DNA of 64,000 bases, from the IMG/VR virus record IMGVR_UViG_2585427757_000006. The stretch is one strand, 5' to 3'. Positions 2,595 to 61,726 of the stretch are shown piece by piece. Source of the stretch: a virus. Taxonomy: Duplodnaviria > Heunggongvirae > Uroviricota > Caudoviricetes. Both the position numbers and the translations under genes were made by a program. Every line of letters starts with the position of its first letter. Positions within the stretch are counted from its first letter, which is position 1. The notes under the pieces are model-generated. The model made no database searches, had not been told where the DNA came from, and worked only from the letters and a program-made list of their open reading frames with translations.

Positions 2595-2692
2595 GGCTAA
2601 TCCTTTGTTATGAAAACAAATTATTTACTAGTGTGTTTAATGTAGCACTGCGCGAACAGGGAACTAAGCCATTCGCGCAGGGAGAAGAGGGG

Positions 2693-2905
2693 TTAACAGA
2701 TTCTGACGGCTAAAGACCCGGAGCCGATATTGAGAAGCGTGAAGCGTTTGTTGTTAAGTTCGAATATAAAGCCAGTTGTGTCATTCACACCAACCTGAAT
2801 CTGCTCATTCGGTAGATCGGTGAGGATGTCAGCTACACACTCATCAGCTAATTTCTGTACGTGTCCGATCTCAAGAGCGATTAGGCTGGAAATAGTGGTG
2901 TTCAT
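2693..2905 (-). CDS. hypothetical small protein
   Basis: 70-aa ORF in track; no recognisable motif. Confidence 0.3.
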   Translation of the reverse strand: MNTTISSLIALEIGHVQKLADECVADILTDLPNEQIQVGVNDTTGFIFELNNKRFTLLNIGSGSLAVRIC

Positions 2906-3155
2906 TCAATCAATCCATTCTAACTTATACTATGGTAAGGAATACTACTAAAATTTATATCAATACTGAATACATTCATATCATATGCAAGTTAATTTTC
3001 TTACCTGTTTTGGGCTAATTTTTCTCCGTGCAATGGCCTTTAACCGGTCTTTTAAGTGTCTATCGAAAAAATGATAATAGCTTTACAACCCTAACCTTTG
3101 ATGTAATATCGGTAAGCACTTACCAGAGAGAATTGAACGCGCAAAGGTTGTAACA

Positions 3156-3542
3156 ATGTCTGACAACAAGATTGAATTTATAGAAAGTCGCTATGCTGCT
3201 TTTATCGCAGGGCTGATTGAATCCTCACCTATGAGTCAGGCCCAAATAGCCAGACTTATTGGTTATAAAAATGCCAACAACCTTTCTTTAATTAAAAGTG
3301 GCAAAATTCCTTTGCCTATCGATAAGGTTCGTCCGTTGGCGCTGGCGCTGGGTATTGAGCCAAGTCGTCTTATGATGATGGTGCTGGAAGAACGCCAACC
3401 TGAACTCGCAGCATTTTTATACAAAGAAGGCACCGCTCCTCTTAACGAGGACGAAAAACAGGTTCTTGCTGCATATAACGAGCGATTCGGTAAAGAGAAA
3501 GGCGCATCACAAAAGGTTGTTGAGGCTATAAAGTCTCTATGA
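3156..3542 (+). CDS. putative helix-turn-helix DNA-binding protein
   Basis: 128-aa ORF; N-terminal segment SQAQIARLIGYKNANNLSLIKSG resembles an XRE-type HTH; convergent with recombinase gene. Confidence 0.45.
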   Translation: MSDNKIEFIESRYAAFIAGLIESSPMSQAQIARLIGYKNANNLSLIKSGKIPLPIDKVRPLALALGIEPSRLMMMVLEERQPELAAFLYKEGTAPLNEDEKQVLAAYNERFGKEKGASQKVVEAIKSL

Positions 3543-4640
3543 AAAATTTACACGAATAAGCTCTGTTGATAGACGATCTCCCTTAAATTTGTGGTCAATT
3601 TCGTCTAAATCCGGTTGCTCTACGATTGATGCGATGTACGTCGAGAAACTTTCTAAGGCGTCTCGCATCTCGTCCATATAATCGTGCCGGTCGTAGACCC
3701 GATCTATCCCCTCAAGACTGTGGTTCATGATTTTACGTGATACCTCCTGGCTTATGCCTAATGCTGGGAAGTAACTACGCGCAGTACGGCGCAAATCTCG
3801 GGGTGTAAATGGCTCAAGCTCCATCAGTTCTGGTCGTTCCAGAATACGACGTAATGCCTGGGCTATTGCCACTTTAGACATAGGAAGGTCTTTCCCGATT
3901 TTTTTATTCGAAGGCACGAGCCACTGGCTGTCTTTACCATATTCGAACAACTCTTCAATACAAGTGCGCATTAATGAGCTTAAAGGCAGAGAATGCTCAC
4001 GGGCAGATTTGTTCCTCTTGCCTTGATTCCAAACCCCACGCTTAAGATTGAACTCACTTTTTTTAGCCCGCAGTACTTCGTCAGGTCGTCTTGCGGATAC
4101 AAGACATAGCCTGGCCGCCCATTTTGTACCAGCACACACATTGAAGTAGTCCCATATATTCCAGAACACCCATACCTCTGCGTCGGTCAGCTTCCGCTCG
4201 CGAGGTGTGGGCTTTGCGCCACCGGCAACTTTGTTTAGTGACATATCGTTTAACGGTGACACGTCTATCATCCCCTGGAAGGCGCACCAGCTAAGGAACT
4301 GCTTCATCAGAGAGAAAACGCGGCGGCCCATAACAATTTTGCCATCCAGTATTAGTGGGTTGACCAGTTGGTTCACCATGAACCTATTAATGTCACTTAC
4401 TTTTACATCGGCAATGTGCGGCAAAACATGTATCAAAATACAATGAACAGCGATCTCTGGCCGACGTCTGGTTATCAGCAGAGATAAGCGAGTGAATAAC
4501 ATGAATGCGTCCGAGAATCTCATGTCATTGCTGACCTGGGAGATCATAACGGCCTGCATTTGAGATGCTCTTTCGAGATACTCTATCGCCTCTTTTGAGG
4601 TGTTCTCCGCAGCGCGTGCTCTGTCAAAGCTATTTTTCAT
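3537..4640 (-). CDS. tyrosine recombinase (phage integrase family); possibly a resolvase in a plasmid context
   Basis: 367-aa ORF; C-terminal catalytic-region-like motifs (ARRPDE, TPRDLRRTARS, VYDRHDY) consistent with R..K..HxxR..Y recombinases. Confidence 0.6.
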   Translation of the reverse strand: MKNSFDRARAAENTSKEAIEYLERASQMQAVMISQVSNDMRFSDAFMLFTRLSLLITRRRPEIAVHCILIHVLPHIADVKVSDINRFMVNQLVNPLILDGKIVMGRRVFSLMKQFLSWCAFQGMIDVSPLNDMSLNKVAGGAKPTPRERKLTDAEVWVFWNIWDYFNVCAGTKWAARLCLVSARRPDEVLRAKKSEFNLKRGVWNQGKRNKSAREHSLPLSSLMRTCIEELFEYGKDSQWLVPSNKKIGKDLPMSKVAIAQALRRILERPELMELEPFTPRDLRRTARSYFPALGISQEVSRKIMNHSLEGIDRVYDRHDYMDEMRDALESFSTYIASIVEQPDLDEIDHKFKGDRLSTELIRVNFS

Positions 4641-4890
4641 ATGACAATCACCGAGTTACGCCGATTCACTGTATAAGTAAACAGTATATTAGGCATAGAT
4701 TCTTATAGGATCAAGAGTAAAAGTAACTCATTTTCAGTAATGATTCCATACATAGTAGGTATGGAATCATTGTGGGCCTTTTTTATAAAATCTGTGATTC
4801 TTCTCAGGATAAATTATCTAAACTAAAAATTGTGTTTTGTGTTGGCATCTGCTTGAATAGACGCATGTTTATTCAGATATGGAATAATCA

Positions 4891-5427
4891 GTGAACAACC
4901 AAATTCATTGGGACTACCCATTCTCAGAAGAATTCGGCAGTGGGATGGTACACAGACAATTCACTGTGGGAAGCACTATTTATGCCGTTGGGTTTGAACA
5001 AATATTGACGATGGATGATTTCACACGTAAGGGAGTTGATATCCTAAATGTACATCCAACATTCCGGTTTCCTCTGAGTGGTGTATGGGGAGTGATTTTT
5101 GACGAAATTGACCCTGTAGAAATGGATTTCAAAGGATTTCGGCATATCCAACATCAAGGCTTGGCAGGTGGTCAAGTGCTTTTGAATGTTGCAAGTATAA
5201 TCTTTGACCATTATACTGTTTGTAACGCAGGAGCTTATGTCTTCTCCGCCGCAGACGACCATCAGCATTTACGCAGAACTGACTTGGTTGACATTTACTG
5301 TAAGATACTAGGTCTAAATGGAAAACGTAAAAGTAGATTGTTCGCCAATGGTTTTCCTGGATGGGAGGCATACTGTGATGTACCAACAGGAGGAAGAGGC
5401 TATGTCGTCACGACTGAAAGTTATTAA
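4891..5427 (+). CDS. hypothetical protein (GTG start)
   Basis: 178-aa ORF on the minority strand; no motif recognised. Confidence 0.4.
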   Translation: MNNQIHWDYPFSEEFGSGMVHRQFTVGSTIYAVGFEQILTMDDFTRKGVDILNVHPTFRFPLSGVWGVIFDEIDPVEMDFKGFRHIQHQGLAGGQVLLNVASIIFDHYTVCNAGAYVFSAADDHQHLRRTDLVDIYCKILGLNGKRKSRLFANGFPGWEAYCDVPTGGRGYVVTTESY

Positions 5428-5629
5428 TTATTACCCCACCTCTGCAGAACGTTTGAGCCTTGAAATGGGCGAAAGACTACAGAAAGCTGCTGGTCAGGAT
5501 TTAAAGAACAAGTTGGGTTCAGGGGAAATTAAACTGATTAACGGTAAATATGTAGGTGAAAGCCTGAAAGTTAATAGCACCTCTATGCTAAAAGCGCGGT
5601 TGCGTAAAGCGTATATCCCCGCTAAATGA
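5318..5629 (+). CDS. hypothetical protein (true start probably internal, near 5402)
   Basis: 103-aa ORF overlapping previous ORF; followed immediately by hairpin terminator. Confidence 0.3.
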   Translation: MENVKVDCSPMVFLDGRHTVMYQQEEEAMSSRLKVINYYPTSAERLSLEMGERLQKAAGQDLKNKLGSGEIKLINGKYVGESLKVNSTSMLKARLRKAYIPAK

Positions 5630-60441: not shown

Positions 60442-60504
60442 TTCACTCTCCGTAGTGTATTGGTTATTTTTATATTCTATAATCGTAAGTATTTACTTAC
60501 AATA

Positions 60505-60532
60505 CAAAAAGCCCCGTAAGGATGGCGGGGCT
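60505..60532 (-). terminator. intrinsic terminator for minus-strand gene 60567-60878
   Basis: Minus strand reads AGCCCCGCCATCCTTACGGGGCTTTTTGTATT. Confidence 0.65.
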
Positions 60533-60566
60533 GTCGTACTGTCGACTAATTGCCACTTGCACATTA

Positions 60567-60878
60567 TCAGGCTATTGCCATCACTGATGCTCTCTGAATT
60601 TCTTGCTGGGCCACGCGGTTAACTTCCATCAAGGCCAGTTCGAGCTGATGTTCCGGCCACATTCTTTGAAACGCCATCCAGCCTTTTCCACGCTGGCGAC
60701 GAACATTCATTACATAACGAGTAAAGGTGTTTTTATCGAAAGACACCGCTGTTTCACGGAACAGACGAATAGAGGTTCCATTGGCAACGATGTCCAGCAA
60801 AGTTAATTGAGCAACCAGCGCAGGCTTCTCTTTTCTCTTCTGGTCTTTGTCCAGACCAAGAACCAATGATTTTTTCAT
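60567..60878 (-). CDS. hypothetical basic protein
   Basis: Internal ATG (MKKSLVLGLDKDQ...) preceded by GGAG; track ORF extends to 60926. Confidence 0.45.
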   Translation of the reverse strand: MKKSLVLGLDKDQKRKEKPALVAQLTLLDIVANGTSIRLFRETAVSFDKNTFTRYVMNVRRQRGKGWMAFQRMWPEHQLELALMEVNRVAQQEIQRASVMAIA

Positions 60879-61032
60879 CACAACTCCGTAAACAACTTGT
60901 TTTCTCAATGGCGTAAATAATACCAATAAGAAAACGGCTACAAAGCATAATGATCAGGTGCATGAGCGATATGCAGGTTCTTCCCTGCGGCTACAGATTA
61001 AGTTAAGCCAGCAATGCTGGCTTTGGTTGGGG

Positions 61033-61383
61033 TTACTCGAATACTTCAAGAAACTCCTGAACGTCCCAATGCTGGACGAGGTGAAGATAGACCTTAGAAA
61101 TCACGTCATTTTCGCTATCGCATGTGAAGTAGTACTTCTGGCTGCGGTTGTATGTGTCCACACAAAATTCGCTCATATCCATAAAGTCAGCATCTTCACC
61201 CATGTCGCAAATCATCAAAGCAGGTGCGTCATCACGAGTCATCAGCTCAAGCACCCACCGCGAATTGATCAGAGTGGAAGACCAACCTTCTAACTCATAA
61301 AACTGATCAAACTCTTTTTGAGTTAATTTCTTGATTTGGTTGATGTCGATATTTGCAAACATAAAGCAATCCTTAAACAACAT
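61033..61383 (-). CDS. hypothetical acidic protein
   Basis: 116-aa ORF; start codon embedded in motif-II element. Confidence 0.45.
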   Translation of the reverse strand: MLFKDCFMFANIDINQIKKLTQKEFDQFYELEGWSSTLINSRWVLELMTRDDAPALMICDMGEDADFMDMSEFCVDTYNRSQKYYFTCDSENDVISKVYLHLVQHWDVQEFLEVFE

Positions 61384-61726
61384 GTTTTCTTATTGGTGTT
61401 ATTATCGCAATAACGCATAGGCGAAAAAGGATTTTATTCCGGTGAATGTGGTTTTGGCAGTGAGTTTTCAGGTTCAGTACCGAGTACACTTTTTACATTA
61501 TTCTGATTTAGTAGCCGAAGGTGGCTGGTGGGCAGAATAATCATCTCCCCGAAAACCTACTGAAATCGATTGTGACCCGTTGGCTGTCTGGCACAATTAC
61601 GCTGTAGCTGGGCATTCAGAGGGAATCCAGCGGTAAGTAAGTTCGCCTGCACGTGAGCGCCTCTCTTCTTCCCGCACATTACAGGTGGGTAGCCGCAACT
61701 CTCCCTCTCGCTATACCGGTACGCCA

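What the first reader, a model, noticed from the sequence alone, without database searches (positions are those of the whole stretch)
2613..61400. Second recurrent motif II: AAACAA-N-TTGTTTTCT in leaders of replication/maintenance genes
Copies read at 2613-2634 (CobT-like), 16450-16468 (helicase), 19268-19286 (parA), 49853-49870 and 49879-49896 (terminase operon), 59225-59241, 59987-60004, 60890-60911 and 61375-61400. The last overlaps the ATG of the 61033-61383 gene. The CobT-like and helicase leaders share about 35 near-identical bases including the ribosome-binding site. Copies 59225 and 61375 share an extended gttttcttRttggtgttaWttatcg tail. This suggests a distinct regulon or conserved translational operator.
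Basis: seen in the sequence. Interest (0 to 1): 0.65.

Follow-up and report, generated by a model that had tools for sequence, protein, structure and literature searches.

The report
Shared operator motif of phage-plasmid genes
A 16-base sequence, AGAAAACAANTTGTTT, marks the start of about twenty gene blocks in SSU5-like phage-plasmids of enteric bacteria and is most likely the binding site of one repressor that keeps them silent while the element lives as a plasmid.

Summary
All nine copies are at the stated places. In gene orientation the motif is AGAAAACAANTTGTTT, with a 13-bp palindrome core AAACAA-N-TTGTTT. It is about 40-fold enriched (16 hits against 0.38 expected) and lies in intergenic DNA.

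The window is an E. coli SSU5-like phage-plasmid, 98% identical to phage Cyrano. Whole genomes of Cyrano, SSU5 and Klebsiella pJN2-26 carry about 18-21 sites each, at orthologous promoters.

Sites come in two layouts:
- About 10 nt downstream of a -10-like box, just before the ribosome-binding site.
- Inverted, 16 nt upstream of a -10 box.

Published RNA-seq of the Cyrano lysogen shows the downstream genes at background, except the parA operon.

The full palindrome occurs only in the Enterobacteriaceae/Yersinia clade. Morganellaceae relatives keep only the A-rich half.

My best reading is a DNA operator for a small repressor encoded by the element, probably a ribbon-helix-helix protein. The main rival is an RNA leader operator for the co-occurring FljA-like protein, which I model as a tandem Hfq fold.

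The binder is not identified, and no transcription start sites are mapped. I found no publication of this motif. Interest is moderate.

The parts
2614..2629 (-). Motif II copy, degenerate (AGTAAATAATTTGTTT). It lies 19 nt upstream of the ATG (2594) of the CobT-like gene 486-2594.
   Evidence: The orthologous site is a perfect match in SSU5 and near-perfect in pJN2-26.
16450..16465 (-). Motif II copy (AGAAAACAATTTGTTT), 19 nt upstream of the ATG of the DnaB-like helicase gene 15090-16430.
19269..19284 (-). Motif II copy (AGAAAACAAGTTGTTT), 35 nt upstream of the ATG of parA 18565-19233.
   Evidence: It is retained in a relative with a different par module.
49854..49869 (-). Motif II copy (AGTAAACAAGTTGTTT) in the terminase small-subunit leader, 40 nt from the ATG at 49813. 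A terminator-like hairpin follows at 49833-49852.
49879..49894 (-). Motif II copy (AGAAAACAAGTTGGTT), second copy in the terminase leader, 25 bp from the first.
59224..59239 (-). Motif II copy (AGAAAACAATTTGTTA), 20 nt upstream of the ATG of gene 58721-59203. GATAAT lies 11 nt upstream of the motif.
59985..60000 (+). Motif II copy in the inverted ('type R') layout. It lies between the terminator of gene 60046-60441 and the promoter region of gene 59554-59928.
60890..60905 (-). Motif II copy (AGAAAACAAGTTGTTT), 11 nt upstream of the ATG at 60878 and abutting the GGAG Shine-Dalgarno.
61375..61390 (-). Motif II copy (AGAAAACATGTTGTTT), 12 nt upstream of the probable ATG at 61362.
18206..18565 (-). 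Candidate binder (inferred). A ParG-like ribbon-helix-helix protein encoded just after parA, in the one motif-II operon that is expressed in the lysogen.
   Evidence: Weak hit to the aCcr1 family, which I recall to be RHH proteins. The putative beta-strand and helix B are invariant even in a 48%-identical variant. The single-sequence model is compatible but of low confidence. Expression.
55056..55334 (+). Candidate binder (inferred). A second small protein with an RHH-like sequence pattern, in the operon transcribed against the bulk of the genome and well expressed in the lysogen.
   Evidence: The RHH assignment rests on the sequence pattern only; Pfam and NCBIfam gave no support. The putative beta-strand reads xC(Q/H)(V/L)xL(S/T) in all elements with the palindrome and VVQFRAT in Morganellaceae relatives without it. 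Expression of CYRAN_117.
55830..56354 (+). Candidate binder for the RNA-level rival. An FljA-family protein (PF03614) modelled as two tandem Hfq/Sm domains.
   Evidence: co-occurrence with the motif

Best explanation
Motif II is the common operator of one regulon of the phage-plasmid. A small dimeric repressor encoded by the element binds the 13-bp dyad AAACAA-N-TTGTTT on double-stranded DNA at about 20 promoters.

In the usual layout the dyad is centred near +14, just after the -10-like box, where a bound protein would block RNA polymerase from initiating or leaving. In the inverted layout it is centred near -38 and would cover the -35 region. A few promoters have both, 51 bp apart.

Binding would keep replication, nucleotide-metabolism, terminase and accessory genes off in the plasmid state, and would set the level of the parA operon by feedback.

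The compact dyad suits a ribbon-helix-helix protein. The ParG-like protein encoded after parA (window 18206-18565) is my first candidate, and the second RHH-like protein (55056-55334) is the alternative.

Shown: the motif, its enrichment, its placement, its conservation and clade limits, and the silence of the downstream genes in a lysogen.
Inferred: that it acts on DNA, that it represses, where transcription starts, and which protein binds.
For: Enrichment and intergenic restriction.

The core is a perfect dyad and the central base is free (A11, C10, G13, T11 in 45 sites).

The spacing to an upstream -10-like element is fixed: T at -11 in 43 of 45 sites, with AA at -13/-12 and A at -9. The distance to the start codon ranges from 11 to 85 nt.

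Inverted copies sit about 16 nt upstream of a GATAAT box and 51-61 nt from the ATG, so they are outside that gene's own transcript if GATAAT is the -10 box.

Sites are conserved at orthologous promoters of E. coli, Salmonella, Klebsiella, Yersinia, Kluyvera and Buttiauxella elements. At some promoters (cobT, tciA) the flanks diverge; at others (parA and several small-gene promoters) they are conserved as well.

In the LF82 lysogen, the genes just downstream of motif II read 5.7-25 against a background median of 9.8. The parA operon reads 50-89 (paper PMC9928086).

The parA promoter keeps the site even where the par module is replaced by a 48%-identical one, and the ParG-like protein keeps its putative DNA-reading strand there.

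Leader RNAs show no structure beyond shuffled controls, and there is no Rfam match.

A 13-bp pseudo-symmetric operator is what the RHH repressor CopG uses (my own knowledge).
Against: No binding protein is identified, and no candidate could be tested.

Every site carries the extra AGA on one side only, always the side facing the -10 box. A symmetric dimer does not explain this.

The strict sigma-70 consensus scan does not call promoters at these sites, and no transcription start sites are known. The positions +14 and -38 are therefore inferred.

The parA operon is expressed although it carries the site.

The virulent phage SSU5 keeps all its sites, so the motif must also matter outside lysogeny.

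The motif often abuts the Shine-Dalgarno sequence, and the element encodes an RNA-binding FljA-like protein whose distribution matches that of the palindrome.

The co-variation arguments rest on essentially one clade split.
Confidence: 0.42

Rival explanations
1. RNA-level operator. The motif is read in the 5' leader of the mRNAs by the FljA-like tandem-Hfq protein (window 55830-56354). That protein would block ribosome binding and promote decay, as its namesake is reported to do on the fliC leader. Functionally this resembles T4 RegA shutting off many early mRNAs.
For: The protein is a clear FljA-family member (PF03614, E = 2.5e-84). It models as two Hfq-like Sm domains with no helix-turn-helix (pLDDT 83.6; best PDB matches all Hfq, target-normalised TM-score about 0.8).

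FljA-like regulators are reported to prevent fliC mRNA translation (PMC2652032).

A canonical FljA-like gene and the full palindrome co-occur in 16 of the 17 such stretches examined. The 17th, a stretch cut short at 15.3 kb (L151), has only two 1-mismatch core hits and no exact copy. Four Morganellaceae elements with only a distant FljA-like protein keep just the A-rich half AAGAAAACAA. Relatives without the protein have neither.

Among ORFs conserved in the clade and absent from the Moellerella element, it is the only one with a regulator or nucleic-acid-binding annotation; the others were not searched for such domains.

The Salmonella fliC leader, CCAATAACATCAAGTTGTAATTGATAAGGAAAAGATCATG, shares CAAGTTGT and a following AAGGA with the motif.

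The motif is strongly oriented with the gene and often abuts the Shine-Dalgarno sequence.

The gene is transcribed in lysogens (CYRAN_114).
Against: A single-strand binder has no need for a perfect dyad. As RNA the dyad cannot fold (1-nt loop), and the leaders are no more structured than shuffles.

Spacing is fixed to the promoter, not to the start codon.

Inverted copies upstream of the -10 box are not in the regulated gene's transcript.

Target mRNAs are at background, not merely untranslated.

The protein diverges to about 36% identity (tblastn of the Cyrano protein against the K. pneumoniae element L145) while the motif does not change.

The co-occurrence is one clade-level event. The fliC match is 7 specified bases found after the fact, and the E. 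coli fliC leader lacks it.
Confidence: 0.28
2. The motif has no dedicated regulator. It is part of a promoter-plus-leader cassette that has been copied around the genome: an A-rich initial transcribed region that gives efficient starts or translation. The TTGTTT half would be a passenger or a weak -35-like element.
For: Morganellaceae relatives have the same promoter layout (ATAATTA, about 8 nt, AAGAAAACAA) without the palindrome.

Many sites in the small-gene array share about 50 bp of flanking similarity, as expected of duplicated cassettes.

The AGA extension always faces the -10 box.
Against: The TTGTTT half is as conserved as the A-rich half in 45 sites.

The motif is kept at orthologous promoters whose flanks have diverged (cobT, tciA). 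It also occurs in front of unrelated genes in variable regions.

It occurs in both orientations.

No palindrome would be expected from a leader selected only for A-richness.
Confidence: 0.12
3. The motif is bound by a conserved host protein of Enterobacteriaceae, for example IHF or an unrecognised transcription factor, or by an element-encoded activator that defines a temporal class of promoters.
For: The motif is invariant while the FljA-like protein and the second RHH-like protein diverge to 36-60% identity. The clade limit coincides with host families. The core partly resembles the IHF consensus WATCAANNNNTTR (by inspection; the consensus is from my own knowledge).
Against: In a scan of viral contigs, every stretch with two or more separate exact matches aligned to SSU5-like genomes. 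The one exception (L089) is a single palindromic site counted on both strands. The remaining hits were single matches in DNA that did not align to the three reference genomes.

The IHF match has two mismatches at conserved positions, and IHF sites are never this uniform.

A position downstream of the -10 box is not where activators work.

I know of no E. coli regulator with this site (own knowledge; not tested against a host genome).
Confidence: 0.1

Closest known systems
Dispersed C1 repressor operators of phage-plasmid P1
   Same: One operator sequence is scattered over a roughly 100-kb phage-plasmid at many separate promoters, including that of a DnaB-like helicase. It keeps early functions off in the plasmid prophage (own knowledge of P1).
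   Different: The P1 operator is an asymmetric 17-mer (ATTGCTCTAATAAATTT) bound by a monomer. The sequence here is unrelated and is a dyad. I did not search for a C1 homologue. The virulent relative SSU5 keeps the sites.
KorB (ParB-family) and KorA operators of IncP plasmid RK2; omega protein of pSM19035
   Same: A 12-13-bp palindrome, or short repeats, occur at about a dozen promoters of a plasmid. They are bound by a partition or centromere-binding protein that also acts as a global repressor and regulates its own operon (own knowledge). Here a site sits in the parA promoter, and the partner of ParA is a candidate binder.
   Different: The sequence is different. The two ParB_N-domain proteins of this element are not expressed in the lysogen. 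The candidate here is an RHH protein, not a ParB-type HTH. No centromere function is shown.
FljA and the fliC mRNA leader (Salmonella flagellar phase variation)
   Same: The element encodes an FljA-family protein. The motif lies in 5' leaders next to the Shine-Dalgarno sequence and shares CAAGTTGT...AAGGA with the fliC leader.
   Different: FljA has one known target, whereas this would be about 20. The motif is a longer dyad tied to promoter spacing. Binding is untested.
T4 RegA translational operator
   Same: Many early mRNAs of a phage with T4-like replication and recombination genes carry a short A/U-rich element near the ribosome-binding site. The RegA SELEX consensus AAAAUUGUUAUGUAA (own knowledge) overlaps AAAUUGUU.
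   Different: RegA sites include the AUG. No RegA homologue was looked for or seen. The motif here is at variable distance from the AUG.
CopG (pMV158) 13-bp pseudo-symmetric operator
   Same: A compact 13-bp dyad overlapping a core promoter, read by a ribbon-helix-helix repressor (own knowledge).
   Different: CopG has a single autoregulatory site, not a dispersed regulon. The sequence is unrelated.

Membership tests
FljA / fliC-type translational operator | An FljA-family (PF03614) protein is encoded by the same element. | tested here: met
   Window 55830-56354: PF03614 E = 2.5e-84. 79 homologues found, mostly on contigs of about 105-115 kb.
FljA / fliC-type translational operator | The operator lies within the transcribed 5' UTR, next to the ribosome-binding site. 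| tested here: inconclusive
   Forward copies end 11-85 nt before the start codon, most at 11-21 nt. No start sites are mapped. Inverted copies lie upstream of the -10-like box.
FljA / fliC-type translational operator | Sequence resemblance to the fliC leader operator. | tested here: inconclusive
   It shares CAAGTTGT and AAGGA with the Salmonella fliC leader. The E. coli fliC leader lacks this.
FljA / fliC-type translational operator | The protein binds the leader RNA and blocks translation. | not testable with these tools
   Needs RNA gel-shift or CLIP experiments and translational fusions.
Dispersed DNA operator of a phage or plasmid global repressor (P1 C1 type, RK2 KorB type) | One sequence recurs at many separate promoters of the element, far above chance. 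| tested here: met
Dispersed DNA operator of a phage or plasmid global repressor (P1 C1 type, RK2 KorB type) | The site overlaps core promoter elements or the transcription start. | tested here: inconclusive
   Spacing to a -10-like box is fixed. However, the strict sigma-70 scan calls no promoter there, and there are no start-site data.
Dispersed DNA operator of a phage or plasmid global repressor (P1 C1 type, RK2 KorB type) | Downstream genes are repressed in the prophage or plasmid state. | tested here: met
   LF82 RNA-seq table: 14 of 15 first genes downstream are at 5.7-25, against a median of 9.8. parA is at 50.
Dispersed DNA operator of a phage or plasmid global repressor (P1 C1 type, RK2 KorB type) | An identified repressor binds the site. 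| not testable with these tools
   There are only candidates: the two RHH-like proteins.
LexA (SOS) box | CTGT-N8-ACAG dyad. | tested here: not met
   The motif sequence has no CTGT/ACAG arms.
Canonical sigma-70 promoter | TTGACA and TATAAT hexamers, 16-18 nt apart, with at least 9 of 12 matches. | tested here: not met
   The scan of 58900-61600 calls no promoter at the four motif sites. Only a weak -10-like nnTAAT is conserved.
Known RNA families (Rfam 15) | A match at gathering score. | tested here: not met
   Only three tRNAs in the whole window.
IHF site | WATCAANNNNTTR. | tested here: not met
   By inspection of the consensus, there are two mismatches at specified positions on either strand.

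The most novel reading that the evidence does not exclude
The FljA-like protein is a tandem-Hfq regulator that SSU5-like phage-plasmids use to control about 20 of their own mRNAs. These elements include pMT1 of Yersinia pestis, and my own knowledge adds pHCM2 of Salmonella Typhi. The control would act through a shared leader element that evolved by adding UUGUUU to an older A-rich leader. FljA of flagellar phase variation would then be a domesticated member of a phage post-transcriptional repressor family, and the motif would be its long-sought recognition element.
Probability: 0.25. Interest if true: 0.8.

Novelty: new member of a known kind. Interest (0 to 1): 0.55.

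Why it matters
SSU5-like phage-plasmids are common in clinical Enterobacteriaceae: about 800-1000 PLSDB records matched, including pMT1 of Yersinia pestis. Their control circuits are essentially undescribed.

This motif defines a large part of the regulon in one stroke. It shows which operons are switched together, and it gives a direct handle for finding the regulator by pull-down, gel shift or ChIP.

It also separates two promoter classes in these elements, motif I and motif II. It dates the origin of the full palindrome to the Enterobacteriaceae/Yersinia branch.

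If the binder is the partition partner of ParA, plasmid segregation and silencing of the lytic genes would be coupled. If it is the FljA-like protein, a phage-encoded Hfq-like global translational repressor would be new.

Tried and rejected
1. Co-variation of motif and binder. The motif is identical in all elements that have it, even where the FljA-like protein is about 36% identical and the second RHH-like protein hardly alignable. No co-variation could be used, only presence or absence across one clade split.

2. The HTH 'putative repressor' (window 3156-3542) as binder: rejected.
- It is absent from SSU5, which keeps 20 sites.
- Its own leader carries motif-I-like GGTAAGnACTTACC, not motif II.

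3. The winged-helix protein (50009-50275) as binder: unlikely. Its recognition helix is unchanged in the Moellerella element, which lacks the palindrome.

4. The ParB_N proteins as KorB-like binders: unlikely as the binder in the plasmid state, because their reads in the lysogen are at or near the floor.

5. A small RNA made from the inverted copies plus the adjacent hairpin: the hairpins lack a consistent U-tract on that strand.

6. A stable RNA structure of the leaders: z-scores run from -1.8 to +0.6.

7. The Rfam scan found nothing but tRNAs.

8. The viral-contig scan for other phage groups using the motif found only SSU5-like contigs with several sites.

9. Literature. There were no hits for the motif strings. 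The FljA papers of 2006 and the P1 genome paper are not held. A 2026 preprint on an SSU5-like element could not be opened.

10. The single-sequence structure model of the ParG-like protein has low confidence (pLDDT 67) and is only compatible with RHH.

Full report
**What the window is.** The window is an SSU5-like phage-plasmid of E. coli. Window 15000-23000 matches Escherichia phage Cyrano at 98.3%. Window 49000-64000 matches CMS-2020a at 98.6% and Cyrano at 96.8%. It runs opposite to the Cyrano record, so most genes are on the - strand. An IS21-family element begins at about 61886.

**The observation.** Read in the direction of the downstream genes, the motif is AGAAAACAANTTGTTT, whose inner 13 bases are a perfect palindrome, AAACAA-N-TTGTTT.
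- The tool's own test gives 16 matches with up to 2 mismatches, against 0.38 expected and never more than 2 in 100 shuffles.
- My count of the 13-nt core gives 9 hits, against 0.43 in 200 Markov simulations.
- 7 of the 9 lie in the 10% of the window that a longest-ORF map leaves non-coding (p = 4e-6). The other two are 'coding' only because those ORFs are drawn from too early a start.
- Counting every 6+6 palindrome with 0-9 spacer bases, without any prior, puts this one first in Cyrano, SSU5 and Klebsiella phage pJN2-26. They have 9, 11 and 11 exact copies, against at most 2 in shuffles.
The CobT-like and helicase leaders agree at 27 of 32 positions, and copies 59225 and 61375 share their upstream tail.
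- The ATG inside copy 61375 is probably not the start codon. An ATG 21 nt downstream has an AAGGA at the right distance (inference).

**Anatomy.** I assembled the whole genomes of Cyrano, SSU5 and pJN2-26. They carry 21, 20 and 18 sites with up to 2 mismatches. Sites come in two layouts.
- Forward layout. The motif points the same way as the gene and ends 11-85 nt before the start codon, most often 11-21 nt, sometimes touching the Shine-Dalgarno sequence. Upstream there is a fixed element. With the motif's first A as position 0, T at -11 is present in 43 of 45 sites, AA at -13/-12 in about 30, and A at -9 in 35. TT stands at -38/-37. This reads as a weak -10 box (nnTAAT, often GATAAT or TATTAT) with a weak TTG -35, so the motif would begin near +5 and its centre would lie near +14.
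- Inverted layout. The sequence reads AAACAANTTGTTTTCT, then 16 nt, then GATAAT, with the start codon 51-61 nt from the motif. The dyad is then centred near -38, over the -35 region.
- A few promoters have both layouts, 51 bp apart centre to centre.
- Scanning only the symmetric core shows that each site carries the extra AGA on one side only, the side facing the -10 box: 32 forward, and 12 inverted with AGA or TGA.
- The strict sigma-70 consensus scan does not call promoters at these sites, and there are no mapped start sites. The coordinates relative to +1 are therefore my inference.

**Which genes.** In the window the motif precedes:
- the CobT-like gene,
- the DnaB-like helicase,
- parA,
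- the terminase small subunit (two copies, followed by a terminator-like hairpin),
- four small genes of unknown function at 58.7-61.4 kb.

Outside the window, in Cyrano, it also precedes nrdB, a TciA-like gene and more small genes.

**Conservation.**
- Orthologous promoters in the four genomes keep the motif. At some of them (cobT, tciA) the flanks diverge. At others (parA, and the small-gene promoters I labelled c105, c106 and c111) the flanks are conserved as well.
- Elements whose FljA-like protein is only 53-57% identical still have the same motif.
- A Klebsiella element with a different par module still has it.
- A Klebsiella element with 71% helicase identity has at least 10 sites in 17 kb.
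- Y. pestis pMT has it, as do Kluyvera and Buttiauxella contigs.
- In a scan of viral contigs for exact matches, every stretch with two or more separate matches aligned to SSU5-like genomes.

**Clade limit.**
- More distant relatives with the same gene order lack the palindrome completely. These are Moellerella, Xenorhabdus, Morganella, Photobacterium, Acinetobacter and various beta- and alphaproteobacteria.
- Moellerella promoters keep the layout ATAATTA, about 8 nt, AAGAAAACAA, but not the TTGTTT half.
- So the A-rich half looks older, and the dyad arose on the Enterobacteriaceae/Yersinia branch.

**Expression.** The supplementary table of the LF82 study (PMC9928086) gives normalised reads for every Cyrano gene in the lysogen.
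- The prophage median is 9.8.
- First genes downstream of motif II read: terS 7.1, helicase 21, cobT 7.8, CYRAN_58 5.7, nrdB 12.9, tciA 7.0, CYRAN_87 7.1, CYRAN_93 6.3, CYRAN_101 7.5, CYRAN_105 12.8, CYRAN_106 12.2, CYRAN_108 5.7, CYRAN_110 6.7 and CYRAN_111 25.5.
- Only parA (50), with the two genes after it (89 and 55), is clearly on.
- The regulon is therefore silent in the plasmid state. This fits repression, but would also fit promoters that need an absent activator.

**DNA or RNA?**

For a DNA operator:
- The dyad is perfect.
- The central base is free.
- Spacing is fixed to the promoter and variable to the start codon.
- The inverted copies lie outside the regulated transcript.
- Transcripts, not just proteins, are low.
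- Leader RNAs fold no better than shuffles (z from -1.8 to +0.6), and Rfam finds nothing.

For an RNA operator:
- The orientation bias is strong, and the motif is close to the Shine-Dalgarno sequence.
- The element encodes an FljA-family protein.
- My AlphaFold model of it (pLDDT 83.6) is two tandem Sm domains, and all top PDB matches are Hfq. There is no DNA-binding fold.
- FljA-like regulators are reported to prevent fliC mRNA translation (PMC2652032).
- The Salmonella fliC leader shares CAAGTTGT and AAGGA with the motif (primer sequence in PMC5056187). The E. coli leader does not.
- A canonical FljA-like gene is found with the palindrome in 16 of 17 stretches; the 17th (L151, 15.3 kb) has only two 1-mismatch core hits. 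A distant FljA-like gene goes with the half motif in four Morganellaceae elements. Neither is present elsewhere.
- This is suggestive, but it is a single clade-level event.

**Candidate DNA binders.**
- The HTH 'putative repressor' (3156-3542) is absent from SSU5, and its own leader carries the other motif.
- The winged-helix protein (50009-50275) keeps its recognition helix in Moellerella, which has no palindrome.
- The two ParB_N proteins are silent in the lysogen.

Two small proteins with a ribbon-helix-helix pattern remain.
- The protein encoded after parA (18206-18565). It has a weak aCcr1-family hit, a family I recall as RHH. Its basic tail, putative beta-strand and helix B are invariant even in a 48%-identical variant. 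It sits in the only motif II operon that is on in the lysogen, which is what autoregulation would give.
- The 92-residue protein at 55056-55334. Its RHH assignment rests on the sequence pattern alone; Pfam and NCBIfam gave no support. It is well expressed in the lysogen. Its putative beta-strand differs between elements with and without the palindrome. However, its own promoter region carries motif I, not motif II.
- A compact 13-bp dyad fits an RHH reader better than an HTH dimer (my own knowledge of CopG, MetJ and omega).
- The single-sequence model of the first protein is only compatible with RHH (pLDDT 67).

**Verdict.** The motif is real, strongly non-random, and defines a regulon. I put 0.42 on a DNA operator for an element-encoded repressor, 0.28 on an RNA operator for the FljA-like protein, 0.12 on a promoter and leader cassette with no dedicated factor, and 0.10 on a host factor or an activator. 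I found no description of this motif in the held literature. As a kind of thing it resembles the dispersed operators of P1 or RK2, so I class it as a new member of a known kind, with a more novel reading not excluded.

Noticed in passing
window 5971-5988, 8443-8460, 11959-11976, 17228-17245, 27512-27529, 46403-46420, 53430-53447; also about 60476-60500: A second dispersed motif, TAAGTA-N6-TACTTA, gives 18 hits with up to 2 mismatches against 1.9 expected. It sits at the -35/spacer of promoters that have a fair -10 box. Unlike motif II, it is conserved in Moellerella and in a variant form in Acinetobacter relatives. It probably marks a different promoter class, possibly late genes.
   Followed up: partly
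window 55830-56354 (+): The FljA-family protein (PF03614) models as two tandem Hfq/Sm domains, and all top PDB matches are Hfq. I found no solved relative by sequence. This fold assignment may be of interest for FljA itself.
   Followed up: yes
window 18206-18565 (-): The gene after parA is annotated 'RelE/ParE putative toxin' in Cyrano. It looks instead like a ParG-type ribbon-helix-helix partner of a short ParA: a disordered basic tail, then strand-helix-helix.
   Followed up: partly
window 3156-4640: The integrase plus HTH 'putative repressor' module is missing from phage SSU5, which is described as virulent (PMC5427195). The HTH gene's leader carries GGTAAGCACTTACC, related to motif I, and the same holds in Klebsiella and Moellerella relatives.
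   Followed up: partly
window 2648-2680: A 9-bp inverted repeat, CTGCGCGAA...TTCGCGCAG, lies upstream of the CobT-like gene's motif. SSU5 keeps it through compensatory changes (CTGTACGAAC...GTTCGTACAG). It is a conserved stem or a second operator of unknown role.
   Followed up: no
window 49833-49852 (read on the - strand): A GC-rich hairpin followed by GTGTGTTTT sits between the two motif II copies and the terminase ribbon-binding site, and is conserved in all relatives. The two motif copies can also pair with each other in RNA. This could be an attenuator-like leader of the late operon.
   Followed up: partly
window 61886-64000: An IS21-family element (istA 61987-63159, istB 63156-63953) is inserted into the small-gene array relative to Cyrano position 95302.
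   Followed up: no
window 4891-5427 (+): A 184-aa Cyrano gene, CYRAN_43, annotated at the position corresponding to this window ORF, is by far the most expressed prophage gene in the LF82 lysogen (about 7000 against a median of 10). However, tblastn of CYRAN_43 gave no hit in the window, so the window ORF is probably a different gene. The window ORF has no Pfam domain.
   Followed up: no
Cyrano 94605-94620 / SSU5 90740-90755 / L012 18360-18397 (outside the window, beyond the IS): Head-to-head motif II copies lie next to a conserved non-coding stretch (ATAACGCAACGGGAGCG..TTCTGAGC), within a gap of about 1.4 kb without genes. This could be an origin or a small RNA.
   Followed up: no
window 28548-28943: Four tandem 99-nt repeats (61-72% identical) lie inside the large tail-gene ORF 27561-32291.
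   Followed up: no
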